Assembly: GCA_023379725.1 (NCBI GenBank)
Contig: JAMCPC010000121.1
Coordinates: 1 to 32,155 of the forward strand
Direction of reading: 5' to 3'
Source of the DNA: Actinomycetota bacterium
GTDB taxonomy: Bacteria > Actinomycetota > Acidimicrobiia > Acidimicrobiales > JAMCPL01
Length of the DNA stretch: 32,155 bases
Both the position numbers and the translations under genes were made by a program. The notes beneath the pieces were generated by a model. The model was not told the DNA's origin and searched no databases. It was given only the letters and a program-made list of their open reading frames with translations. Positions 1 through 32,155 of this stretch are shown piece by piece. Every line of letters starts with the position of its first letter. The first letter of the stretch is position 1.

Positions 1-497
1 CTTACCATACCATCTACACTTGAGATGGTCATGCCTGTCAACAACTCTGCCTCAGGGATGTTTGGCGTCAGGATATATGTATATGGCACCAGTAGCTCTC
101 GATACGCCTCTATACCTTCCTCGCTTACCAGCAGATTTCCCGACGATGCCGCAAGCACGGGATCAACTACTACATTTGGCAATTCTCCGGCTTTTATCCG
201 AGACGCAATAGTTGCAACGTTCTCTGCTGTGGCAAGCATACCCACCTTGGTGGCTCTAACCGGTGATCCTGCCACCGCAAGGTCTATCTGTAGACCTAGA
301 AGATCTTTCGGCACAGGCATTATTCCTGCTACTGTGGTAGAATCTTGTGCGGTTACTGCAGTGACTGCATATACACCGCGTACTCCAATTGATTCCAGGG
401 TGCGTATATCGGCCTGCATCCCTGCCCCTCCACTGGAATCTGATCCGGAGATTACAAGGACACCACCAGGGGCGTCATTCGACTGATGAGAACCCAT
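1..497 (-). CDS. thiD: hydroxymethylpyrimidine/phosphomethylpyrimidine kinase ThiD, N-terminal part; the gene runs off the window start
   Basis: Absent from the ORF track because it is open-ended. My minus-strand translation from the ATG (complement of 495-497) reads MGSHQSNDAPGGVLVISGSDSSGGAGMQADIRTLESIGVRGVYAVTAVTAQDS..., the ThiD N-terminal signature. It lies 28 nt downstream of the thiG stop on the same strand. Confidence 0.85.
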   Translation of the reverse strand, partial: MGSHQSNDAPGGVLVISGSDSSGGAGMQADIRTLESIGVRGVYAVTAVTAQDSTTVAGIMPVPKDLLGLQIDLAVAGSPVRATKVGMLATAENVATIASRIKAGELPNVVVDPVLAASSGNLLVSEEGIEAYRELLVPYTYILTPNIPEAELLTGMTISSVDGMV

Positions 498-522
498 GGC
501 TATTTACGGGACGAGCCACTAG
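466..522 (+). repeat. Partial copy E (right-hand ~57 nt) of the interspersed element, spanning the thiG stop / thiD start junction
   Basis: CCAGGGGCGTCATTCGACTGATGAGAACCCATGGCTATTTACGGGACGAGCCACTAG aligns without gaps to the right arm of copy C (reverse complement) at 44 of 57 positions, including the blocks CCAGGGGCGTCAT and AACCCATGG. Confidence 0.75.
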
Positions 523-525
523 GTG

Positions 526-1338
526 TCATTCGGCTGAGGAAAACCCACGGCCATTTGCAAGACCGTCCGTCAGGTCGGCCATACCTTCCATAGATGAGGA
601 TGCAAGTGCCCTGAATCGTCTTGGTATCCTTCCAGCCAGATACGCATCGTGTCCAGCTATAATAGCATTTTTCATTGCAGATGCCATCATTGGAGGGTTC
701 TGTGCCCTTGTAATTGCAGAGGCCACTAGCACTCCAGAGCAACCCAATTCCATTGCCTGTGCAGCCTCTGATGCAGTACCAATACCGGCATCAAGTATTA
801 CCGGCACATTCACGGTGTCGACTATCAAAGCAATATTGTGCGGATTGCGGATTCCAAGGCCACTGCCTATCGGAGCTCCCAGCGGCATAACGGCGACGCA
901 ACCTACCTGTTCAAGACGTTTGGCAACTATGGGGTCGTCGGTAGTATATGGAAACACCTTGAAACCCTTGTCGTATAGGATTTCTGCCGCTCTCAACAGT
1001 TCGTTTACATCCGGTAATAGGGTATCTTCATCTCCTATTACCTCCAACTTCACGTAATCTGTTTCGAGTGCATCCCTGGCCATTTCAGCTGTAAACACTG
1101 CTTCGTGAGCATTGTAGCAACCTGCAGTGTTTGGAAGGACAGTGACGTTATGCTCTTCGAGTACATCCAATATCGATCTTCCTGATGCAACCGATACACG
1201 TCGCATTGCAACTGTCGCCACTGAAGCCTCTGATGCCTGTATGACTCTTTCCAGCACTTCATGGCTCTGCACTCCGCCTGTGCCGAGCAGCAGTCGGTGA
1301 GTTATTTTCAGACCCGCAATATCGACATTCTCTTCCAT
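526..1338 (-). CDS. thiG: thiazole synthase ThiG
   Basis: 270-aa ORF with a typical ThiG sequence (LLLGTGG..., [14 protein letters not shown]). Its start overlaps the thiS stop (TAATG). Confidence 0.95.
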
Positions 1339-2945: not shown

Positions 2946-5900
2946 TTGGATGACGATTGGAACGTTAAAATGAATCCTGCCTGTAAAAGCAGTAATCGCC
3001 GCGTACTCGCTGTGAGCACTGAACAAAACACTACCAGCCTTTATAACCCTGCCTTTGAGCATGATTCATGCGGGATAGCTCTTATAGCTGATATCCACGG
3101 CAACAAGAGCCATGGCATAGTGGAGGATGCGTTGATCGCCCTTCAAAATCTGGCACATCGTGGTGCGACTGGAGCTGAAGAGGAGACTGGCGATGGCGCT
3201 GGGATACTGCTTCAAATGCCTCACGATTTTCTAAAATCACAGACAGAGCTGGGTATAGAAGAAATAGGGGAGGGTAAATATGCCTGTGGTATCGTGTTTA
3301 TGCCCAGGGATGACGATTCGGTACAGAAGTCGATGAGGCGCATAGAAGAATTGGCTAGAGAAGAATCCCTGAAGGTACTTGGTTGGCGCCAAGTACCTGT
3401 GAATGATACATCCATTGGTACCACTGCTGCCGAGGCTATATGCTCATTTTGGCAGGTGGCGGTGGCTCCAACTGCGCCAGTCGACCATGGTGATTTGCAA
3501 GACGGGCCACCAGTGGCCCGTCTTGCAAATAGCGTGACGTTATCCGGCAAGTCAGGGGCATCATCTGGCAAGGCCGAAGACGAAGGCGTAGCCGGTAGCT
3601 ACGTTGAGGATGAGAACGCCGTCAGGGGTGCCATCTGGCCGGCGGGAACCCATGGTGATTTGCGAGACGGGCCACTAGCTATCGATAGAATGGCGTTTTG
3701 CTTAAGAAAACGGGTAGAGCATGAGTTGGATAGTGTCTACGTAGCTTCATTGTCAAGCAGGACAATAGTGTACAAGGGTATGCTGACCTCCCATCAGCTC
3801 TCGTCGTTCTATCCTGACCTATCGGAACCATCCCTTAAGTCAGCTATTGCGATGGTCCATTCCAGGTTCTCCACCAATACCTTTCCATCATGGCCACTTG
3901 CGCATCCCTACAGATATATTGCCCACAACGGCGAGATAAACACTCTGATCAGCAATCGTAATTGGATGCGTGCCAGAGAAGCACTACTCGACTCAGACAT
4001 AATCCAGGGAGATCTGTCCAGGCTCTTTCCTATATGTACCCCCGGTGCATCCGATTCAGCCTCTTTTGATGAGGTAATAGAGCTGCTGCACCTTGGCGGT
4101 AGGTCGTTGCCTCATGCAATACTTATGATGATCCCTGAGGCGTGGGAGAAAAACACAGATATGGATCCACGTATGAGGGATTTCTATATGTACCATGCAT
4201 CCATAATGGAACCATGGGACGGGCCAGCAGCCATGATCTTCACTGATGGCATCATTGCCGGAGGAGTACTGGACAGAAACGGTTTTAGACCATCGCGTTG
4301 GCTTCTCACGAAGGGCGGAAAACTGGTACTTGGCTCTGAGACTGGACTACTGGATATAAATCCAGTAGACATAGTCAGAAAGGGGCGGCTACAGCCGGGG
4401 AAGATGTTCCTTATAGATACATCACAGGGACGTATAATAGAGGATACAGAGATCAAGAGCGCACTAGCATCAGAGCATCCTTACGGTCAATGGTTACAGG
4501 AACAGCAGGTACATCTAAGCGATATGCCATACCGAAAGATGCTGACTCCTCAGCACTCTTCGGTGGTCACACATCAGCGCCTTTTCGGATATACCAATGA
4601 GGATCTAAAGGTAATTATCGGCCCTATGGCCATGGGAGGCCAAGAAGCAGTAGGATCCATGGGCAACGACGCGGCTATTGCAGTATTATCAACGCGCCCC
4701 AGGCTCCTGTATGACTACTTTACCCAGCTATTTGCTCAAGTCACCAACCCGCCACTCGACGCAATAAGGGAAGAACTTGTCACATCCACAAGGACTCAGA
4801 TAGGGTCCGAGGGAAATTTGCTCGATCCTCAACCAGTCTCATGTAAGCAGATTATTCTTGAATATCCAATCATAGACAACGAAGAGCTTGCCAAGTTAAT
4901 GTACGTAAACGAGCATGGAGAGACACCTGGATTCAAAGCATTTACCGTTGACGGGTTGTTCGATTCCTCGGGAGGTGCAAATGCCCTAAGAGATGCTATC
5001 GAATCAGTGCGTTCAAAGGTAAGTGATGCTATTGCGAATGGAGCCAACATAATCATACTCTCAGACCGCAACGCCAGCGCTGAACTAGCTCCTATCCCGA
5101 TGTTGTTGCTTGTCTCTGCCATCCATGAGCACCTGGTGAGAGAGCGCACCAGGACAAAGGTTGGGTTAATCGCTGAGAGTGGTGAGGCCAGAGAGGTTCA
5201 CCATATGGCTCTATTGGTGGCCTATGGAGCATCAGCTATCAACCCCTACCTTGCCTTTGAAACAGTAGATGATATGGTTGCCAGCGGTTTGTTGGAGGAC
5301 ATTTCTGCACTTGAGGCTCGTCGGCACTACATCAAAGCCTGCACAAAGGGGATAGTAAAGGTAATGTCTAAGATGGGTATATCCACAGTGGCATCCTATA
5401 TCGGTTCGCATGTATTTGAAGCCATCGGTCTGGACAGGGATTTCGTGGATGAATACTTTAGTGGTACTACTAGTAGGATAGGCGGCGTAGGGCTCAAAGT
5501 TGTCACAGAGGAGGTATTGAAGCGCCATCGCAGAGCATTCAGCCGGTTGCAGTCGGTACGGGCTCATCGCGAACTAGAGACCGGAGGAGAGTATCAGTGG
5601 CGTCGCGAAGGAGAGGCACACCTGCTGGCCCCAAAGGTAGTATTCAAGGTACAGCAGGCCGTAAGGAACCGCGATTATTCATTGTTCAAGGAATATACCG
5701 ATCTCGTCGATGAGCAATCTGAGCAACTTTGTACATTGAGGGGTATGATGCACTTCAAGAAAGGGGTGAATTCGCCCATTTCCCTGAGCGAGGTGGAATC
5801 GGTATCCAGCATTGTTAAGCGTTTTTCAACCGGTGCCATGTCGTATGGATCGATATCGAAAGAAGCCCATGAGACACTCGCCATTGCAATGAACAGGCTG

Positions 5901-8021
5901 GGTGGAAGGTCGAATACCGGTGAAGGAGGAGAGGACCCCGATAGATTTACAGTAGATCCGAATGGGGATTCTCGGCGTAGTGCCATTAAGCAGGTTGCCT
6001 CGGGACGTTTTGGTGTAACTATAGAATACCTGGTCAATTCAGACGACATACAGATCAAGATCTCCCAGGGAGCCAAACCAGGAGAGGGTGGTCAGTTGCC
6101 GCCGCATAAGGTGTACCCCTGGATAGCGCGTACCAGATATTCTACACCGGGAGTAGGACTTATCTCGCCCCCACCGCACCATGATATTTACTCAATAGAG
6201 GATATTGCTCAGCTCATACACGACCTAAAGTGCTCTAACCCCAATGCTCGCGTACATGTAAAGCTGGTTGCTGAGGTAGGTGTAGGTACTGTAGCGGCAG
6301 GGGTTGCCAAAGCGAAATCAGATGTAGTACTCATATCTGGACATGACGGTGGCACCGGTGCCGCGCCGCTTACCTCTATCAAGCATGCAGGCGTTCCCTG
6401 GGAGATGGGGTTGGCCGAGACAAACCAGGTACTGGTAGCAAACGGCCTACGTGATCGTATAGTCGTTCAGGTGGACGGCCAATTAAAGACCGGCCGTGAC
6501 GTGGTGATCGGAGCGTTACTTGGGGCTGAGGAGTTTGGTTTTGCCACTATGGCTCTGGTTGCACTCGGCTGCGTCATGATGAGAGTATGCCATCTTGACA
6601 CCTGTCCGGTAGGCATCGCCACCCAGAATCCCGTACTGCGTAATCGTTTTACAGGAAAGCCGGATTACGTAGAGGCATTCTTTGAGATGATCGCCGAAGA
6701 GGTACGAGAGTACCTCGCTGAGCTGGGATTGAGATCGTTGGAGGATGCTATAGGCCGGGTGGATCTGCTTGATGTGGAACCTGCCGTAGAGCACTGGAAG
6801 GCACGCGGCCTGGATCTTTCTCCCATACTTACCTTGCCTGCAAATAATTACGGGACTGAACGTTTTCAGTGCGCCGCTCAGAACCATGGAATCGACTCGC
6901 AGTTGGACTGGGAGTTTATTGATGAGTGCATAGCAGGGATTGAGCAGGGCCATCCGGTGGCAGTCGAACTTCCCATAAGAAACGTCCACAGAACTGTAGG
7001 GACACTGCTAAGTCATACCATCGTTTCACGCTTCGGTGCAGGAGGTTCCGGTGGTAGTGACGGTGGTGGTAGTGACAGTGATGGGGGTGCTGGTGGTATG
7101 GATGCTGCTGGTGGTGGTAGTGACGGCGGTAGCGGTAGTAGCAGTGGTGCAGGGGGTACGGGGAGTGCAGGTAATCTACCCAATGACTTTATTGCTATAA
7201 AATTAAACGGTTCCGCTGGACAGAGTTTTGGAGCATTCCTGACGAAGGGAGTGACCCTCCAGCTGGTCGGTGATGCCAATGATTACCTGGGCAAGGGGCT
7301 GTCAGGTGGCAGAATCATTGTAGTGCCTCCACCAGAATCACTGTTCGCTGCTGAGGAACAGATTATCGCGGGTAATGTAATACTCTATGGAGCCACCAGT
7401 GGCGAATTATTCCTGAGAGGGCAAGCCGGTGAAAGATTCTGCGTAAGGAATTCCGGTGCTATTGCGGTTGCGGAGGGAATAGGCGACCACGGATGTGAGT
7501 ACATGACTGGTGGTATAGCTGTTGTATTAGGACCAGTAGGTAGAAACTTTGCTGCCGGCATGTCTGGTGGAGTTGCCTATCTCTATATTGGAGATCTTGA
7601 AAAAACTCCTTGGGAAAATCCAGGTAGTACGGTAACTCAGAGTGATAAGAGTAATATAGCCAATACAGCCAATATGGTCCAGGAGGTTCATGGATCTGGT
7701 GGCGGAGAGGGTATTGTTGAGTACGATATAACTCAATATCAAGTCGCTCAACTATATATTGCCAAGCATATCAATACAGAGATGGTAGACGTGATTGCGC
7801 TTGATGAGGAGGACATCGAATTATTGAGAGACCTGTTGACCAGATATCGTAGTGAGACTGGATCGACAGTTGCCACAACCATATTACACGACTTCAATAG
7901 AGTCTCGAGTCTGTTCTTGAAGGTCATGCCACGAGATTATGCAAAAATTATACAGATTACGAAATTGGCTGAAGCTGAAGGGAGATCGGTAGACGATGCA
8001 GTTATGGAGGCTACGCGATGA
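2946..8021 (+). CDS. gltB: glutamate synthase large subunit GltB, carrying in-frame insertions
   Basis: 1691-aa ORF. It has the Ntn amidotransferase N-terminus ([20 protein letters not shown]), the FMN/Fe-S domain and the C-terminal GXGXG domain ([18 protein letters not shown]). Alternative ATG start at 2970. Confidence 0.97.
3485..3678 (+). mobile_element. Copy A of the ~169-bp TIR-flanked interspersed element (3511-3678), preceded by a 26-bp duplicate of its own right end (3485-3510). It lies entirely inside gltB and is in frame.
   Basis: Aligns end to end with copies B, C and D. CCATGGTGATTTGCRAGACGGGCCAC occurs at 3485-3510 and 3650-3675, exactly 165 bp (55 codons) apart. The gltB frame stays open. 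Confidence 0.9.
7035..7172 (+). repeat. Imperfect GGTGGTAGTGAC-type tandem repeats encoding a Gly/Ser/Asp-rich tract inside GltB
   Basis: Translation is [46 protein letters not shown]. The DNA shows repeated ggtggtagtgac units. Confidence 0.85.
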
Positions 8022-9562: not shown

Positions 9563-9927
9563 TTCGCAAATCAATACCTAGGTAATTGGTATTGAACTGC
9601 CCACAGCTCGGGGAAAGCGGTTACATCCGCCGTGATGGTGCAGGTAAGAGGTTCTCGCATTGTCGATTATGTGCGCAATCCAACAAAAACACCAATCAAC
9701 CAGACAAAGGTAACTTGTTCCATGCCCCCCGGGCAACCCCCCCGGCAACCCAACCGGGAACTTCCGGCGAGAGCTACCAATCAACCATATAAAAGTCACT
9801 TGTTGTATACGCCACGCTCTGAACAGGTAATATGCTTCAACCATAACCCTCAAGTGCAGGTTTAGGGTTTTAATATCTGCTTTTATTGTCATAAAATTGT
9901 GTATTAGCGTTACGTTATAAAAATAGC

Positions 9928-15393: not shown

Positions 15394-15559
15394 CTAGTGT
15401 AGCGTCCCGCAAATAACCATGGTTCCCACCAGCTAAATGAGCCCCTGACGGTGTTTTCATCCTCAACGTAGCTACCGGCTACGCCTTCGTCTTCGGCCTT
15501 GTCAGACAACACCATAACTTGCCGGATAGTGTCACGCTATTTGCGGGACACTACACTAG
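15394..15559 (-). mobile_element. Copy B of the interspersed element (166 bp, three 1-nt deletions relative to C/D), between convergent gcvPB and the histidine kinase
   Basis: Full-length alignment to copies A, C and D, with TIRs CTAGTGTAGCGTCCCGCAAATA / TATTTGCGGGACACTACACTAG. It overlaps the 3' end of the kinase CDS (15537-15559). Confidence 0.9.
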
Positions 15560-17216
15560 CTGGGGGTTCGGATAGCGGAAGGCGTATCACTACCTCCGTT
15601 CCATCTATACCGCTCTCATGTGAATATATAGATACGGTGCCGTGCATAGCTTCCACCAGTTCCGATACTATAGCGAGCCCAAGCCCGGTACCGCCGCCAG
15701 TGCTTCTTGAGGTGTCTGCACGATAGTGCCGCTCGAATACATGAGCCAGGTCATCGACGGCTATACCGGGTCCGTCATCCAGCACCGATATTACGGCTTG
15801 ACCATTATCGATTCCGTAATGCAGCTGTATCTTACTGCGTGCATACTTCAGGGCATTATCTACTATGTTCCCGATCGACTGCACCAGCCGTCCTTCGTCG
15901 CCATTTACTACGATATTATTTGGATGGCCCGCGGCAACAGACACGCCTTTATCATTGACTATAATACTCTTCGGGTGAGCGTCGAGGACTGCCTCCGCAT
16001 ACCTCTCATCTTCCAACTTGGAAGCTACCAATTTACCAGCTACGGTATTTGTACTCCCAATACCCCCAATACTCCCAATACCCTCAATACCTACCACCTC
16101 TATTACAATGTCCCGCTGATTTGCAACTGGCAAAAAGATGCTAGCTACCTGCTGTACAACTGCCGATATATCTACCGGCTCCATATCGAGTGAGAACCGT
16201 TTGGCCTGCAGGTGGGCGAGGTCAAGAAGATCACGTATCAGTCCATCAAGTCGGTAAGACTCGTCTCTTATTATCTCTACAGCATGCGTGGTGTCGTCTA
16301 CCGCTCCATCAAGGATAGCCTCCGCATAACCGCGAATCGAGGTGAGGGGAGTTCGCAGGTCATGAGAGACAGAGAGAAGAAACTGACGTTCGGACTGCTG
16401 CGAGTTATCCAGTTGGGTAGCCATGTCGTTTATAGCATCAGCGAGGCTGGCTATTTCCCTGTAGTCACGTTGTGAAGTCTCCACTCTGGCTTCAAGCTCT
16501 CCCGAGGCCAGCCGATTGGCAGTAGACACTACATTGCTAATCGAGCTTGCAAGCCGTCTGGAGAGAATCCATGCCACCAACCCGGCTACCAGAAGCGATG
16601 CCAGCCCGATTAAGATGAAATATTCCAGTCCAGTAGAGGGTGGCTTTATCCTGCGAGTCACCACCATGACGACAAGTTCGTTGGTTGCTACATGTAATAC
16701 TGTATTTATACGGGTGGAGAGGTAGAGGGGAACTGCGGCATATGCCAGATGGCCGCTGGCACCTGCTATGGCGTATCCATTAAGTAGCTTTTGCATATCA
16801 AGTTGCGACGCACTCACACCCGGCGGCAAGGTGGTCAGTGGGGGAGCAATCTGGCCGTTAGGTGAGATAGTAACGACTCCTCCTCCTGAAAATCCAGCAG
16901 CGAGAAGAAGTTTTTTTGTATCGCTGACCCGTACATGTGGAGCTATCGTAGCTACCTCTCTGGCATCGGTCAGAATAGATGAAGCCTCTGATGAAGTCGC
17001 AACATGACCCACCAGGACATAGGTGCCCAGCCAGGTAATAGCAAGGGTACCCATGGCAATGAGCACCATAGATAGAAGTATCCTGTAACGTAGCGACCCG
17101 GTCCTGCCTCCTCTGTACGCACCTGCTCCACTGCCGACATTGAAGATGGAACTGAGGCTCGCCGACACCTGCTGACCCGCTACCTGATCACCAGGCATCC
17201 GTTTGTCATCAGTCAA
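15537..17216 (-). CDS. two-component sensor histidine kinase (two TM segments, HAMP, HisKA, HATPase_c)
   Basis: H-box FLLSVSHDLRTPLTSIRGY, N-box NIVDNALKYA, G-boxes DDGPGI and GGTGLGLAIV. The start overlaps the response regulator stop by 8 nt. Confidence 0.9.
   Translation of the reverse strand: MTDDKRMPGDQVAGQQVSASLSSIFNVGSGAGAYRGGRTGSLRYRILLSMVLIAMGTLAITWLGTYVLVGHVATSSEASSILTDAREVATIAPHVRVSDTKKLLLAAGFSGGGVVTISPNGQIAPPLTTLPPGVSASQLDMQKLLNGYAIAGASGHLAYAAVPLYLSTRINTVLHVATNELVVMVVTRRIKPPSTGLEYFILIGLASLLVAGLVAWILSRRLASSISNVVSTANRLASGELEARVETSQRDYREIASLADAINDMATQLDNSQQSERQFLLSVSHDLRTPLTSIRGYAEAILDGAVDDTTHAVEIIRDESYRLDGLIRDLLDLAHLQAKRFSLDMEPVDISAVVQQVASIFLPVANQRDIVIEVVGIEGIGSIGGIGSTNTVAGKLVASKLEDERYAEAVLDAHPKSIIVNDKGVSVAAGHPNNIVVNGDEGRLVQSIGNIVDNALKYARSKIQLHYGIDNGQAVISVLDDGPGIAVDDLAHVFERHYRADTSRSTGGGTGLGLAIVSELVEAMHGTVSIYSHESGIDGTEVVIRLPLSEPPASVVSRK
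16054..16089 (-). repeat. 9-bp tandem repeat x4 (plus strand CYCCCAATA-like units) encoding GIEGIGSIGGIGS inside the kinase catalytic domain
   Basis: Plus strand reads ctcccaata cccccaata ctcccaata ccctcaata. The period of 9 bp preserves the reading frame. Confidence 0.85.
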
Positions 17217-17889: not shown

Positions 17890-18004
17890 CTTCTCTAACA
17901 GTCTGGCACATTTTACGTAAGCAGTCATGAGCACCGGATTGGTACATCTGTTGCGGGTACGGTCCGGCTACAAGAGACTCACCTGATGTAAGCAATTATG
18001 ATTA

Positions 18005-18173
18005 CTAGTGTAGTGTCTCGCAAATAACCATGGGTTCCCGCCAGCCAGATGACGCCCCTGGCGGCGTTCTCGTCCTCAACGTAGCTTCCGGCTACGCCTT
18101 CGTCCTCGGCCTTGCCAGATGACGCCCCTGACTTGCCGGATAACGTCACGCTATTTACGAGACACTACACTAG
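18005..18173 (-). mobile_element. Copy C of the interspersed element (169 bp) in the divergent intergenic region between the response regulator and der
   Basis: TIRs CTAGTGTAGTGTCTCGCAAATA / TATTTACGAGACACTACACTAG. There is an internal 17-nt direct repeat GCCAGATGACGCCCCTG x2 and a central hairpin CGTAGC-TTCCG-GCTACG. Nearly identical to copy D. Confidence 0.93.
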
Positions 18174-21796: not shown

Positions 21797-23105
21797 GAAT
21801 GATAATCTCCCCTCCGAGAGCCCACCAAGTGCTGACCCACCAAGTGTAACCCCTGTGTCGTCCAAAACTACATTCCATTCCTGGAAGGATACCGTCGTTA
21901 TAGGCCCAGCGCTAGCCGCGGCAACTGCCGGCATAGGGCAATTTGGCATCACTGCCGGCTTGGCTCTTGTTGCCAAAGGATTTGGAAAACCATACAATGG
22001 TCACTCTATTGCCGCTGTTGCCGGTCTATCTGGAACCTCACTCGGTATAGGGCTTGCCATTATACGCCTTGCATCGCTCCTCGCATTACCGTTGGCATCT
22101 ATGGCTGACAAGCGCGGGCGGCGGCGAGTCATCCTGACATGCACTACTGCCGGCCTGATTATTACTGCACTGGCAGGTGTATCACCATCTTACTGGTTCT
22201 TTGTGGTGATATTTGCTGCCGGCCGCCCATTACTCAGTGCTACCACCTCTATCGCTCAGGTAATAGCCTCAGAAGAGACATCCTCAAAGGATCGCGCCAA
22301 GGCAATAGCTATGGTAGCCGCCGGATACGCCATGGGTGCCGGTGCTATAGCCATCTTCAATGACGTGGCATCAAAGGTAATCGGATTCAGATGGCTATTT
22401 TTTGCTGCGTTGGTGCCACTCATAGCATTGCCATTTATTGCCCGTATGATAAGAGAACCCGATAGGTTCGTCAATGCAGCACCCCCAAAGATAACGCGCA
22501 ATTCAGCCATAAGGGCACTCTCGCCACAGTATCGTGCAAGGTTACTCATAATCCTTATTCTTTCCTTCGCTGTCTCGTGGCTGACAGGACCAGCTGATAC
22601 CTTTGTCTTTCTCTACGCAGAATCCTTTTTGCATATGGCCGTCTCAAGTGTTACAGCACTGATCCTCATTGCAGGAATAGTCGGCTTAGCTGGCCTGCTT
22701 ATGGGAAGGTGGCTGGCAGATCATATGGGGCGCCGAGTTACCTCCATGGTCGCGCTCATGGCAATGACCGCTTTTGGAATACTTATTTATAGTGGCACCA
22801 AGTTGGGCATGATAACCGGTTACGAAATGGCGATATTTTCGGGCGGTATGTTCTCTGCCCCAGCAGGTACATTTATTCTCGAACAGTTTCCTACTCCCAT
22901 ACGTGCGGCTGTATCAGGGTGGCAGGTTGCGACCGGAGTCATCGGTGCAGCAGCAGGACTATTTGTCTTTGGCATAGTAGCTCACATCGGCCACCGATTT
23001 TCTATAGCTGCCTACCTGCTCTTCCCTGGTGTGGCCGTTATAGCTCTTCTCTTTCTGCTTCTACAAGAGACAAAAGGAAAGGAACCAGAAGAACTATGGG
23101 AATAG
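21774..23105 (+). CDS. MFS transporter
   Basis: 443 aa, about 12 hydrophobic segments, MFS signature loops MADKRGRRRV and LADHMGRR. The N-terminal boundary is uncertain (23-nt overlap with the upstream gene). Confidence 0.75.
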   Translation: MAATVEDRNDNLPSESPPSADPPSVTPVSSKTTFHSWKDTVVIGPALAAATAGIGQFGITAGLALVAKGFGKPYNGHSIAAVAGLSGTSLGIGLAIIRLASLLALPLASMADKRGRRRVILTCTTAGLIITALAGVSPSYWFFVVIFAAGRPLLSATTSIAQVIASEETSSKDRAKAIAMVAAGYAMGAGAIAIFNDVASKVIGFRWLFFAALVPLIALPFIARMIREPDRFVNAAPPKITRNSAIRALSPQYRARLLIILILSFAVSWLTGPADTFVFLYAESFLHMAVSSVTALILIAGIVGLAGLLMGRWLADHMGRRVTSMVALMAMTAFGILIYSGTKLGMITGYEMAIFSGGMFSAPAGTFILEQFPTPIRAAVSGWQVATGVIGAAAGLFVFGIVAHIGHRFSIAAYLLFPGVAVIALLFLLLQETKGKEPEELWE

Positions 23106-23914
23106 ATCTGTCTAACAAGAACCCCGATTCACGATATTTTGCCCTGGCTTTGTCGACAGAGATCCCAGGGCTATATCGGTACGCTCGCTCAATTACAGGC
23201 AGCAATGAAGAGGCGGAGGACCTCGTCGGCGACACAATAGTCAGAGCAATGGAACGGGCGGAGCAGTACCGAAATGAGGCATCGCTTAAGACATGGCTTC
23301 ACAGCATTCTCTACCACTTGGCAATTGATCGTGCTCGCCACAATGCACATGAGATCAGCGTCGAGGATGTAGAAACTCTCTGGCGTGATGATTCCTACAG
23401 CGTGAACGCGGAGGAGGTTGCCGAACGTGCCGAGTCAGCCGACGAACTTCGCGAAGCGCTCATCCATCTACCACACCACTACCGCAGCGCTGTCGTCCTC
23501 CACGATGGCGAGGGTTTTTCTGCAAATGAGATAGCAGATGTCCTTGGTATCTCACTATCTGCTGCCAAGCAGCGTATCCGGCGGGGAAGAATGATGCTTG
23601 TAAGTGCTCTGTCACGGCAAGAGGAGCGACGAACAGCAAATGTCGGAGTTCCCCTCGGTTGCTGGGATGCCCGAGAAAAGGTGTCGAGTTACATAGACGG
23701 TGAGCTGGATCCATCTCAACGCGCTTCACTAGAGGATCATCTTTCCAGATGTGCTACTTGTCCACCCCTCTACCAGGCTCTTGCTGGTACCACTGTATCA
23801 CTTGATCGACTGCACGATCCCGATAACGTCATCCCAGCCACCCTGGCCGATAGGGTACGTCGCTATCTCGACCTTGACCACACCCATGGAACTATCAACC
23901 CTGCCAAAGAATAG
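23096..23914 (+). CDS. ECF sigma-70 family factor fused at its C-terminus to a zinc-binding anti-sigma (ZAS, zf-HC2) domain
   Basis: Region 2 (EDLVGDTIVRAMER...WLHSILYHLAIDRAR), region 4 (LPHHYRSAVVLHDGEGFSANEIADVLGISLSAAKQRIRRGR), then C-x25-H-x3-C-x2-C (CWDAREK...EDHLSRCATC). The ATG at 23096 overlaps the MFS stop. The ORF-track start at 22919 is an out-of-frame read across the MFS gene. Confidence 0.85.
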   Translation: MGIDLSNKNPDSRYFALALSTEIPGLYRYARSITGSNEEAEDLVGDTIVRAMERAEQYRNEASLKTWLHSILYHLAIDRARHNAHEISVEDVETLWRDDSYSVNAEEVAERAESADELREALIHLPHHYRSAVVLHDGEGFSANEIADVLGISLSAAKQRIRRGRMMLVSALSRQEERRTANVGVPLGCWDAREKVSSYIDGELDPSQRASLEDHLSRCATCPPLYQALAGTTVSLDRLHDPDNVIPATLADRVRRYLDLDHTHGTINPAKE

Positions 23915-24794: not shown

Positions 24795-24978
24795 AATCCA
24801 ATTATATGACATATAAACAACGCAACCTACCCTCACGTTGTAATCAATCTCGTCCACATCGTTCTCCGTACCTATCAGCTACATTGAGTATTCAGCATTA
24901 CGGATCTGACGGATCTCCACTAGCCAGATAGCGTTTTCTCTGATCGTGCTATGCATTAGACATTGGGATTTACTAACT

Positions 24979-25035
24979 CTTGCCTTATTCCCGAGCACTG
25001 GATAATGTAATGCTATTTACGAGATACTAGACTGG
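24979..25035 (-). repeat. Degenerate partial copy (one arm) of the interspersed element, 13 nt upstream of the HAD gene start
   Basis: 25000-25035 (GGATAATGTAATGCTATTTACGAGATACTAGACTGG) matches the copy C end GGATAACGTCACGCTATTTACGAGACACTACACTAG at 30 of 36 positions without gaps. Weaker similarity extends back to CTTGCC at 24979. Confidence 0.6.
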
Positions 25036-31897: not shown

Positions 31898-32155
31898 GTC
31901 TAGTGCAGTGCTTCGTAAATAGCGTGACGTTATCCGGCAAGTCAGGGGCGTCATCTGGCAAGGCCGAGGACGAAGGCGTAGCCGGAAGCTACGTTGAGGA
32001 CGAGAACGCCGTCAGGGGTGTCATCTGCCTGGCGGGAACCCATGGTTATTTGCGAGACACTACACTAAGTTTTGATCTCCTTCCCACGGCTGAACTTGGA
32101 CACTGCTCAAGTCGAGCACTGCCGTACGGTGGATATGGTAAGTTCGTAGAATTAC
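31894..32155 (+). CDS. Open reading frame running through copy D and off the window end. By synteny it may be the N-terminus of the gene downstream of pyrG (a NUDIX hydrolase in mycobacteria). Start unresolved (GTG 31894, GTG 31903 or TTG 32050).
   Basis: My translation: [87 protein letters not shown]... with no stop before the window end. The other two plus-strand frames after the element hit stops. Confidence 0.3.
31900..32069 (+). mobile_element. Copy D of the interspersed element (170 bp), starting 2 nt after the pyrG stop codon
   Basis: Full-length alignment to A, B and C. Left end CTAGTGCAGTGCTTCGTAAATA, right end TATTTGCGAGACACTACACTAAG. Confidence 0.93.

What the first reader, a model, noticed from the sequence alone, without database searches (positions are those of the whole stretch)
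18005..18173. A dense family of ~169-bp TIR-flanked, non-autonomous elements: at least 4 full and 2 partial copies in 32 kb
Full copies are A 3511-3678 (+), B 15394-15559 (-), C 18005-18173 (-) and D 31900-32069 (+). Partial copies are at 466-522 (+) and 24979-25035 (-). The approximate consensus in A/D orientation is [169 protein letters not shown]. The two ends are ~22-nt inverted repeats ([22 protein letters not shown]). No transposase is present in the window. The element ends in the palindrome CTAG, so a TA or YTAR target duplication cannot be separated from the TIR. C and D differ at only a handful of positions, which suggests recent spread. B carries three 1-nt deletions, and the partial copies are clearly older. 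One copy per roughly 5-6 kb of core genes is a very high density. I do not recognise the sequence as any named bacterial repeat family (REP, ERIC, BOX, Correia, RPE, MIRU).
Basis: seen in the sequence. Interest (0 to 1): 0.85.

Follow-up and report, generated by a model that had tools for sequence, protein, structure and literature searches.

The report
New IS630-type miniature transposon family
The repeats are copies of a small, transposase-less jumping gene (a MITE of the IS630/Tc1-mariner type) that has recently moved in an uncultured acid-mine-drainage actinobacterium and has even settled in frame inside the glutamate synthase gene; this is a new family of an ordinary, well-known kind of element.

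Summary
The window has four full copies (163 bp plus a TA duplication), and the weakest nhmmer E-value among them is 7e-53.

The MITE interpretation is supported by direct evidence:
- **Mobility.** Nine sister-strain contigs with an identical Der protein lack copy C. Their empty site is ...ACTAGATG... and the filled site is ...ACTAG[165 nt]ATG.... This is a precise insertion with a TA duplication inside CTAG, the IS630 hallmark.
- **Autonomous relatives.** A scan with the terminal repeat found complete 1.14-kb insertion sequences in other metagenomic contigs. They carry almost the same ends, CTAG flanks and a 358-aa IS630-family transposase (NCBIfam NF033545, 247-259 bits against a cutoff of 100).

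No transposase was found in the window or in roughly 130 kb of non-redundant related DNA, so the partner in this genome is inferred.

Copy A is an in-frame insertion in gltB, in a variable loop of the amidotransferase domain. Copy B supplies the last six codons and the stop of a histidine kinase gene. A D/C hybrid copy in one sister assembly indicates a 13.7-kb inversion between copies C and D.

There is no match in Rfam, plasmid or phage collections, or the literature.

Verdict: new member of a known kind, modest interest.

The parts
18008..18170 (-). Copy C, the reported finding. A 163-bp MITE proper with TA target duplications at 18006-18007 and 18171-18172, inside CTAG. It sits between the response-regulator gene (-) and der (+), and ends 17 nt before the der start codon.
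   Evidence: nhmmer E = 5e-60. Absent from sister contigs L019-L026 and L028, present in L027. Alignment A2 shows an exact 165-nt insertion.
31903..32065 (+). Copy D. A 163-bp MITE with TA at 31901-31902 and 32066-32067. The flanks are C-TA-G and C-TA-A. It begins 2 nt after the pyrG stop codon.
   Evidence: E = 2e-59. Present in all 10 sister contigs examined.
15397..15556 (-). Copy B (160 bp, three 1-nt deletions) with TA at 15395-15396 and 15557-15558. It fills the convergent gap between gcvPB and the histidine kinase gene. The last six codons (SVVSRK) and the TAG stop of the kinase ORF 15537-17216 lie in its end.
   Evidence: E = 7e-53. Pfam HATPase_c ends at residue 549 of 559. Present in all sister contigs.
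3513..3675 (+). Copy A (163 bp, end variant GTGGCCCGTCT...AGACGGGCCAC). It is read through in frame inside gltB. The left TA has decayed to CA (3511-3512); the right TA is at 3676-3677.
   Evidence: The translation has no stop. The GATase_2 Pfam hit is split in two stretches. Homologues lack about 54-55 residues here. PDB 7mfm_G aligns around the insert.
3485..3510 (+). Partial right end of a second element directly abutting copy A (27 of 29 nt identical to A's own right end over 3485-3513). It is also translated in frame as part of the gltB insert.
   Evidence: the repeat finder D3; sequence; nhmmer.
450..521 (+). Decayed partial copy (right half, model positions 97-169) ending in CAC-TA-G, between the ends of ORF 25-486 (+) and thiG (-).
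   Evidence: nhmmer E = 1.6e-11; sequence.
522..573 (+). Second decayed right half, in tandem with the previous one. It overlaps the 3' end of the thiG ORF (526-1338, -).
   Evidence: nhmmer E = 8e-4; the repeat finder D3.
24978..25035 (-). Decayed left-end fragment in the divergent gap between msrB-like (-) and the HAD hydrolase gene (+).
   Evidence: nhmmer E = 0.005; the repeat finder D2 and I9.
2970..8021 (+). gltB (glutamate synthase large subunit, 1683 aa from the ATG). It hosts the in-frame MITE insert and remains an intact ORF.
   Evidence: Pfam GATase_2, Glu_syn_central, Glu_synthase and GXGXG. Sister-strain products are 1678-1683 aa.

Best explanation

Each element is 163 bp. It ends in about 20-bp terminal inverted repeats, [20 protein letters not shown]..., and encodes no transposase. 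An IS630-family DDE transposase supplied in trans is inferred to bind the ends, cut the element out and paste it into a TA dinucleotide, preferably in CTAG. The TA is duplicated, so each insertion adds exactly 165 nt (55 codons).

Shown here:
- the anatomy of the element;
- the exact insertion junction and target duplication;
- insertion polymorphism between near-identical strains;
- complete IS630-family insertion sequences with the same ends in other organisms.

Inferred: a matching transposase is or was present in this lineage. It could be chromosomal or carried on a visiting conjugative element.

Consequences seen in the window and related loci:
- Copy A survives in frame in a variable loop of GltB, because the insert is a multiple of three and one frame of that sub-type has no stop.
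- Copy B donates the C-terminal six codons and the stop of a histidine kinase gene.
- Copy C replaces the sequence upstream of der and of the response-regulator gene.
- Copies C and D serve as substrates for homologous recombination, seen as an inversion in one sister strain.
For: **Family and copies.**
- nhmmer E-values run from 7e-53 to 5e-60 for the four full copies.
- Further copies lie at other loci in NCBI, ENA and JGI assemblies of related Actinomycetota MAGs.

**Mobility.**
- Among contigs encoding an identical Der protein, nine have a 97-nt intergenic region with a single CTAG.
- The window and L027 carry 165 extra nt flanked by CTAG...CTAG.
- A near-identical copy (1 mismatch to C) is present in a different MAG, L001.

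**Target duplication of TA.**
- Copy D has C-TA-G on the left and C-TA-A on the right.
- The L003 copy has A-TA-G on the left and C-TG-G on the right.

**IS630 assignment.**
- The pattern TAGTGNNNNGTCNNGNAAATAGCGTGAC retrieved L033 and L034, which are 1136-bp elements flanked by CTAG.
- Their ends match the MITE ends over about 22-29 nt at 86-96% identity.
- They carry a 358-aa ORF with Pfam DDE_3 and HTH domains.
- That ORF scores 247-259 bits against NCBIfam NF033545 'IS630 family transposase', whose cutoff is 100.
- Annotated IS630 elements of Ralstonia and Streptomyces (54% amino-acid identity) also end in CTAG|TGT....

**Established knowledge.** IS630 family elements insert into TA and duplicate it, and IS630 prefers TA within CTAG (PMC2170065 and the Tenzen and Ohtsubo references cited there).
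Against: - No IS630 transposase gene was found in the window or in any fetched locus of this lineage. That is about 590 kb fetched, roughly 130 kb non-redundant (tblastn).
- The insertion sequences with matching ends come from contigs of 54-61% GC, so from other organisms than the 50% GC host.
- The interior of the MITE shares nothing with those insertion sequences, so it is not a simple deletion derivative of them.
- Because CTAG is a palindrome, most copies cannot separate a 2-bp from a 4-bp duplication.
- The two ends of each copy co-vary at positions 4-7. Transposase recognition alone does not predict this.
Confidence: 0.9

Rival explanations
1. A MITE derived from an IS5-family element (IS5/IS427 group), which duplicates a 4-bp YTAR target such as CTAG, as described for MITEPsy1 of Pseudomonas syringae.
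For: Most copies are flanked by CTAG on both sides, and copy D by CTAG and CTAA, both of which fit YTAR. MITEPsy1 inserts at CTAG or YTAA with a 4-nt duplication (PMC3189936).
Against: The ends match, over about 22-29 nt, complete elements that encode an IS630-family transposase. No IS5-type transposase is associated with them. A 4-bp model needs one mutation in D and two in the L003 copy; a TA model needs none and one.
Confidence: 0.04
2. The element is primarily a selected structured nucleic acid: an RNA or DNA hairpin with a regulatory, mRNA-stability or recombination role. Its spread and conservation would then reflect host function rather than selfish transposition.
For: - Both strands fold more stably than shuffled controls (z = -3.3).
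- The two ends of a copy co-vary at positions 4-7 (within-copy 11.4 of 13 matches against 8.9 of 13 between copies, permutation p about 1e-4).
- Several copies are fixed at the same site across strains.
Against: - No Rfam match, even at E <= 1.
- Copies lie in coding sequence, in 3' ends, upstream regions and between convergent genes.
- The fold is essentially the terminal repeat pairing, and z = -3.3 is modest.
- Copy C is absent from most strains with no visible consequence.
- The co-variation test does not control for sub-family relatedness.
- A TA duplication and IS630-type ends explain the spread.
Confidence: 0.04
3. Assembly artefact: collapsed or mis-joined repeats, or chimeric contigs.
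For: In one MAG both hits lie at contig ends, which shows that the repeat does disturb assembly.
Against: The same copies at the same sites, with unique flanks on both sides, recur in many independent assemblies from NCBI, ENA and JGI. The copies differ from each other by 4-13%. The gltB reading frame is kept across copy A.
Confidence: 0.01
4. A REP/BIME-type extragenic palindrome spread by a RAYT (Y1) transposase.
For: It is short, repeated, mostly intergenic and able to form a hairpin.
Against: At 163 bp it is far longer than the 20-40 nt of REPs. It has true terminal inverted repeats and a TA target duplication. One copy is intragenic. Its ends match IS630-type elements. No RAYT gene was seen in any locus.
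Confidence: 0.01

Closest known systems
IS630-family insertion sequences (bacterial branch of IS630/Tc1/mariner; for example IS630 of Shigella sonnei, ISY100 of Synechocystis, and the annotated IS630 elements of Ralstonia GMI1000 and Streptomyces plasmids)
   Same: - Insertion into TA with TA duplication and a preference for CTAG.
- Ends beginning GTG(T).
- About 22-29 nt at each end almost identical to complete 1136-bp IS630-family elements (L033, L034, L040) that encode a 358-aa HTH + DDE_3 transposase.
   Different: - The element is 163 bp and has no transposase.
- Its interior is unrelated to those insertion sequences.
- The matching insertion sequences were found only in other, higher-GC organisms, one of them inside a T4SS conjugation cluster.
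- The named Ralstonia and Streptomyces elements share only the CTAG|TGT tip, not the rest of the ends.
Bacterial MITEs in general (Correia/NEMIS, RUP, ERIC, Nezha, MITEPsy1 and others; review PMC10969869)
   Same: Small size, terminal inverted repeats, target duplication, many copies, mostly intergenic, hairpin-forming, able to alter gene ends and upstream regions, and prone to recombination.
   Different: No sequence similarity to any family retrievable here (Rfam, plasmid and phage collections, literature string search). The host is an uncultured acid-mine-drainage Actinomycetota lineage.
Rickettsia palindromic elements (RPE), and intragenic ERIC or QMITE1 copies
   Same: In-frame insertion into a housekeeping gene that stays intact, placed in a variable loop. 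The insert length is a multiple of three.
   Different: Only one of about 15 distinct sites seen here is intragenic, whereas RPEs are frequently intragenic. No mobilising enzyme or target duplication is established for RPEs (own knowledge), while this family has clear IS630-type ends and a TA duplication. Sequence homology to RPEs was not tested.
Stowaway MITEs of plants (mobilised by mariner-like transposases)
   Same: Tc1/mariner-superfamily MITEs with a TA duplication. Their interior is unrelated to the autonomous element, and similarity is limited to the ends.
   Different: Eukaryotic hosts and different end sequences. The analogy is one of mechanism only.

Membership tests
MITE (non-autonomous class II element) | Small size (tens to a few hundred bp) and no transposase ORF | tested here: met
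   163 bp. The only long open frame is a 55-codon read-through with no family match. The peptide search found only short hypothetical ORFs.
MITE (non-autonomous class II element) | Terminal inverted repeats | tested here: met
   19-20 nt after the TA, with 10-13 of the first 13 positions matched within full-length copies.
MITE (non-autonomous class II element) | Target-site duplication shown by an empty versus filled site | tested here: met
   Alignment A2: the empty site is ACTAGATG and the filled site is ACTAG-[165 nt]-ATG.
MITE (non-autonomous class II element) | Multiple dispersed copies and insertion polymorphism | tested here: met
   Four full and four partial copies in the window, plus further sites in related MAGs. 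Copy C is polymorphic among strains.
IS630/Tc1-mariner-derived element | 2-bp TA duplication, target TA (CTAG preferred) | tested here: met
   Every full copy inspected keeps TA on at least one side, usually within C-TA-G. D and L003 favour a 2-bp over a 4-bp duplication. The palindromic CTAG leaves some ambiguity.
IS630/Tc1-mariner-derived element | Ends shared with an element that encodes an IS630-family DDE transposase | tested here: met
   L033, L034 and L040 share 86-96% identical ends over 22-29 nt. Transposase: NF033545 at 247-259 bits (cutoff 100) and Pfam DDE_3.
IS630/Tc1-mariner-derived element | Cognate transposase present in the same genome | tested here: inconclusive
   None in the window or in about 130 kb of non-redundant lineage DNA. 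The MAGs are fragmented at repeats and could not be searched whole. Transposase homologues could not be traced to this lineage.
IS630/Tc1-mariner-derived element | Transposase binds the ends and mobilises the element | not testable with these tools
   Needs a binding or mobilisation assay.
IS5-family-derived MITE | 4-bp YTAR duplication and ends like an IS5-family element | tested here: not met
   The ends match IS630-family elements, not IS5. The 4-bp model needs extra mutations in D and L003.
REP/BIME | 20-40 nt imperfect palindrome, no target duplication, RAYT-associated | tested here: not met
   163 bp, TA duplication, IS630-type ends.
Any Rfam RNA family | Covariance-model match | tested here: not met
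   No match at gathering scores over the window, and none at E <= 1 over copy C.
Rickettsia palindromic elements | Frequent in-frame insertion in ORFs, and sequence homology to RPE families | tested here: inconclusive
   One in-frame copy (gltB) out of about 15 sites. Homology to RPE sequences was not tested because no RPE library was available.

The most novel reading that the evidence does not exclude
The matched variation of the two ends within each copy is absent from the full-length insertion sequences with the same ends. It could mean that the hairpin itself is under selection. In that reading the family has been partly domesticated as a structured RNA or DNA module: read-through-tolerant operon spacers, a donor of promoter -35 boxes, or a new surface loop in GltB. 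It would then be more than a selfish MITE.
Probability: 0.08. Interest if true: 0.5.

Novelty: new member of a known kind. Interest (0 to 1): 0.3.

Why it matters
- It gives annotators of these acid-mine-drainage Actinomycetota MAGs a defined repeat. This explains contig breaks (both hits in one MAG are at contig ends), spurious 40-100-aa 'hypothetical proteins' (24 such ORFs were found), an unexpected 55-66-residue insert in GltB, and an altered kinase C-terminus.
- It offers a clean natural example of a recently active bacterial IS630-type MITE, with an empty and a filled site in near-identical strains and a MITE-mediated inversion. This is useful as a strain marker and for studying trans-mobilisation, possibly by a transposase carried on a conjugative element.
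- It does not change what is known about MITE biology.

Tried and rejected
- **Rfam** at gathering scores over the window, and at E <= 1 over copy C: nothing.
- **blastn** of the element against the plasmid and phage collections: nothing.
- **Literature** search for the end sequence as a string: one irrelevant hit.
- **First metagenome scan**, with the central core: no hits. The genome-collection scan with the core gave only two hits, both at contig ends of one MAG.
- **GltB search for close relatives lacking the insert.** The search returned only homologues at 47-72% identity. The empty gltB site at DNA level was therefore not obtained; only the protein-level gap was.
- **AlphaFold2 on the GltB N-terminal domain** with an 8-sequence alignment. 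The model was poor (mean pLDDT 50.5). The coil prediction for the insert (pLDDT about 32) is not usable evidence.
- **Tracing the transposase to the host lineage.** Homologues sit on short metagenome contigs or unnamed records. The best-placed one (P0275, the IS of L033) sits in a T4SS cluster of a 61% GC contig, not in the host.
- **Orientation bias.** Sense to antisense relative to flanking genes is 9:1 overall, but only 4:2 among copies found without the ORF-based discovery bias. I did not count it as a finding.
- **Open reading frame of the element.** One stop-free frame out of six in 55 codons is not unusual, so I do not claim selection for coding capacity.
- **Promoter-like site.** A -35 box in the end repeat plus a -10 box in the flank at copy C is a consensus match only.

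Full report
**1. The observation**

The repeat family is real.
- The repeat finder finds C and D 96% complementary over 169 nt, and A and C 90% over 164 nt.
- A four-way alignment has 87% mean column identity.
- A profile built from it scores the four full copies at E = 7e-53 to 5e-60.
One is a second right half in tandem at 522-573. The other is a 26-nt right end at 3485-3510 that abuts the left end of copy A.
- Pfam annotation of 20 ORFs shows only housekeeping genes and no transposase: thiG, thiO-like, gltB, gltD, gcvT, gcvPA, gcvPB, a two-component pair, der, MFS transporters, an ECF sigma factor, recN and pyrG.

**2. Where the copies sit**

- **Copy A** lies inside gltB and is read through in frame.
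  - The GATase_2 Pfam match is split in two stretches.
  - Seven homologues lack about 54-55 residues between 'QVxVAP' and 'LAxDR' (alignment A3).
  - The solved B. subtilis-type enzyme 7mfm_G aligns as two blocks. They leave query residues 143-206 unmatched between chain residues 147 and 153.
  - The ORF is intact, and sister strains encode products of 1678-1683 aa, so the insert is tolerated.
- **Copy B** fills the gap between the convergent genes gcvPB and the histidine kinase gene. The kinase ORF runs 20 nt into the element and stops at the TAG inside AAATAG. The element therefore supplies its last six codons and its stop.
- **Copy C** lies between the divergent response-regulator gene and der, 17 nt before the der ATG.
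- **Copy D** starts 2 nt after the pyrG stop.

**3. Evidence of mobility**

A look-up of the window's exact Der protein returned ten contigs from independent NCBI, ENA and JGI assemblies. In nine of them the regulator-der spacer is 97 nt. In the window and in JGI contig L027 it is about 260 nt.

The alignment (A2) shows otherwise near-identical flanks. The empty site reads ...GATTACTAGATGCT.... The filled site reads ...GATTACTAG[TGTAG...CTACACTAG]ATGCT.... The insertion is therefore exactly 165 nt, and a single CTAG has become two.

Because CTAG is palindromic, this site alone cannot separate a TA duplication from a CTAG duplication.
- Copy D (C-TA-G on the left, C-TA-A on the right) fits a TA duplication with element termini G...C without any mutation.
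- The clpX-folC copy in L003 (A-TA-G on the left, C-TG-G on the right) needs one mutation under TA and two under a 4-bp model.

The empty site shows no footprint and is the majority state, so this is an insertion in the window's sub-lineage. A copy differing from C at one position occurs in a different MAG (FK_Sedi_A_Bin.79, L001), again pointing to recent activity.

**4. Distribution**

The element's one long open frame was used as a peptide query. It retrieved 24 short 'hypothetical proteins', which are ORFs called across element copies, in NCBI, ENA and JGI data. Fetching their contigs gave further sites:
- between clpX and folC, fixed in all ten contigs shown;
- after an acyl-CoA ligase gene;
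- after groEL;
- between rpsH and rplF in the ribosomal protein operon of GCA_023488965.1;
- tandem or nested forms;
- a 96-nt derivative that has lost the segment between the two internal CAGGGGCGTCATCTGGC repeats.

All hosts are labelled only Actinomycetota or Actinobacteria MAGs. 'FK_Sedi' denotes Fankou acid-mine-drainage sediment (PMC5864196). Density is uneven: four full copies in this 32-kb window, against one in several other 20-kb loci.

**5. Which transposon family**

A metagenome scan with the left-end pattern TAGTGNNNNGTCNNGNAAATAGCGTGAC returned nine contigs. In these, only the first 30-40 nt match the MITE.
- L034 has two such ends facing each other 1136 bp apart. L033 has the same arrangement.
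- Between the ends lies one 358-aa ORF. It has Pfam HTH_29/HTH_32 and DDE_3 domains.
- The ORF scores 247-259 bits against NCBIfam NF033545 'IS630 family transposase', whose cutoff is 100.
- Both elements are flanked by CTAG.
- Their ends are GTGTGATGTCTCGCAAATAGCGTGAC and GTCGCTCTATTTACGAGACAGGACAC. The MITE's are GTGTAGTGTCTCGTAAATAGCGTGAC and TTATTTGCGAGACACTACAC.
- blastn gives 86-96% identity over 22-29 nt at the ends and nothing in the interior.
- The nearest annotated relatives (54% amino-acid identity) are IS630-family elements of Ralstonia GMI1000 and a Streptomyces plasmid. These also end in CTAG|TGT....
- IS630-family elements insert into TA and duplicate it, and IS630 prefers TA in CTAG (PMC2170065 and the Tenzen and Ohtsubo papers it cites).

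The element therefore meets every testable criterion of an IS630-type MITE. The same ends also flank an unrelated MITE of about 205 bp in a 64% GC contig (L029). This IS group has thus spawned MITEs more than once.

**6. What is not shown**

No IS630 transposase occurs in the window or in any fetched locus of the host lineage. The insertion sequences with matching ends come from contigs of 54-61% GC, so from other organisms.

One of them lies between trbC and virB3 of a T4SS conjugation cluster. This makes delivery of the transposase by a conjugative element conceivable, but that is speculation. Attempts to trace transposase homologues to the host MAGs failed. Trans-mobilisation is therefore inferred from anatomy and family knowledge.

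**7. Rival explanations**

- **IS5-type MITE with a YTAR duplication.** MITEPsy1 is the precedent (PMC3189936). This is disfavoured by the identity of the ends to IS630 elements and by the flanks of D and L003.
- **Selected RNA or DNA structure.** It has weak support from folding z-scores of -3.3 and from co-variation of the two ends. Against it: there is no Rfam match, the copies sit in every kind of context, and copy C is dispensable.
- **Assembly artefact.** This is excluded by recurrence in many independent assemblies with unique flanks.
- **REP/RAYT element.** This does not fit the size, the ends or the duplication.

**8. An unexplained detail**

Positions 4-7 of the ends vary between copies (TAGT, GCCC, GCCT, GTCT). 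Yet the two ends of one copy agree at 11.4 of 13 positions, against 8.9 of 13 between copies (permutation p about 1e-4, 8 copies). In the full-length insertion sequences these positions are not matched between the two ends.

Possible causes are sub-family founder effects, conversion between the ends, or selection for a perfect hairpin. The test does not control for relatedness.

**9. Comparison with the known, and verdict**

In-frame MITE insertions (RPE, ERIC, QMITE1), gene-end remodelling and MITE-mediated rearrangements are all documented (PMC10969869). IS630-type ends and TA duplication are textbook.

What is new is the family itself. It matches nothing in Rfam, the plasmid and phage collections, or the literature. 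Its host is an uncultured AMD actinobacterial lineage. ISfinder and Dfam could not be queried.

This is a new member of a known kind, of modest interest (0.3).

Noticed in passing
L043 4276-4444 (GCA_027387465.1, DAHYEU010000014.1), compared with window 18005-18173 and 31900-32068: In this sister assembly pyrG is followed by a hybrid element, then by the response-regulator and histidine kinase genes. The hybrid has the left part of copy D and the right part and flank of copy C. This is the junction expected if the 13.7-kb der-to-pyrG segment inverted by recombination between the inverted copies C and D. A chimeric assembly join was not excluded.
   Followed up: partly
window 7035-7170 (inside gltB): A second lineage-specific insert in GltB: a Gly/Ser/Asp-rich low-complexity stretch of about 45 residues ([18 protein letters not shown]...). 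It is encoded partly by a degenerate 15-nt tandem repeat (7050-7130) just before the GXGXG domain. It may explain the 1678-1683-aa length differences between sister strains.
   Followed up: partly
window 15537-15559: The histidine kinase ORF ends inside copy B. The element supplies the last six codons (SVVSRK) and the TAG stop.
   Followed up: partly
window 17995-18023 (- strand): A promoter-like site made of a -35 box TTGCGA inside the element's end repeat and a -10 box CATAAT in the flank, 17-nt spacer, facing the response-regulator gene. It is a consensus match only. The TTGCGA box is part of every copy's right end, so outward-facing hybrid promoters are possible.
   Followed up: no
L051 10052-10222 (GCA_023488965.1, JAMDCJ010000139.1): A full copy sits between rpsH (S8) and rplF (L6) inside the conserved ribosomal protein operon, in sense orientation, so it must be transcribed through. 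In the same locus no genes are called between rpsS and rplP (5015-6844), where rplV and rpsC are expected.
   Followed up: no
L041 6214-6309; L052 2312-2513; L013 2445-2502: Structural variants of the element. One is a 96-nt short form that has lost the segment between the two internal CAGGGGCGTCATCTGGC direct repeats. The others are composite forms in which a left part ending ...GGGGCGTCATC is joined by TA to a second left end. The junction is identical in two unrelated loci.
   Followed up: partly
L033 688-1824, L053 9456-10600 and L054 688-1824: The complete IS630-family element with MITE-like ends is inserted between trbC and virB3 of a T4SS/conjugation gene cluster on a 61% GC contig that also carries a replicase-like gene. 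Its transposase ORF runs through the right end repeat and uses the TAG of the flanking CTAG as its stop codon.
   Followed up: partly
L029 1666-1872 (JGI Ga0326726_10182450): An unrelated MITE of about 205 bp with the same type of ends (CTAGTGTCCCGTCTCGCAA...TTGCGAGACGCGCCACTAG) in a 64% GC contig. The IS group appears to have produced MITEs independently in other bacteria.
   Followed up: no
ends of all full copies (window A-D; L003, L013, L041, L051): Positions 4-7 of the terminal repeats differ between copies but are matched between the two ends of each copy. They are not matched in the full-length insertion sequences. The cause is unknown.
   Followed up: partly
window 9691-9731 and 9776-9816: A 41-nt direct repeat (78% identity, 85 nt apart), with a CCCCCCCGGCAA mini-repeat at 9725-9751, in the long gap between gltD and the merR-family gene. 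It is unrelated to the MITE.
   Followed up: no
window 22919-23914: One ORF combines ECF sigma factor regions 2 and 4 with a zf-HC2 anti-sigma zinc-finger motif. Sister strains call it as 272 aa with the same domains. This looks like a sigma/anti-sigma fusion.
   Followed up: no
L027 8879-9019 (JGI 3300039716): In this contig the histidine kinase product is 507 aa instead of 556, and a 140-nt gap separates it from the response-regulator gene. The element profile does not match there. The cause was not examined.
   Followed up: no
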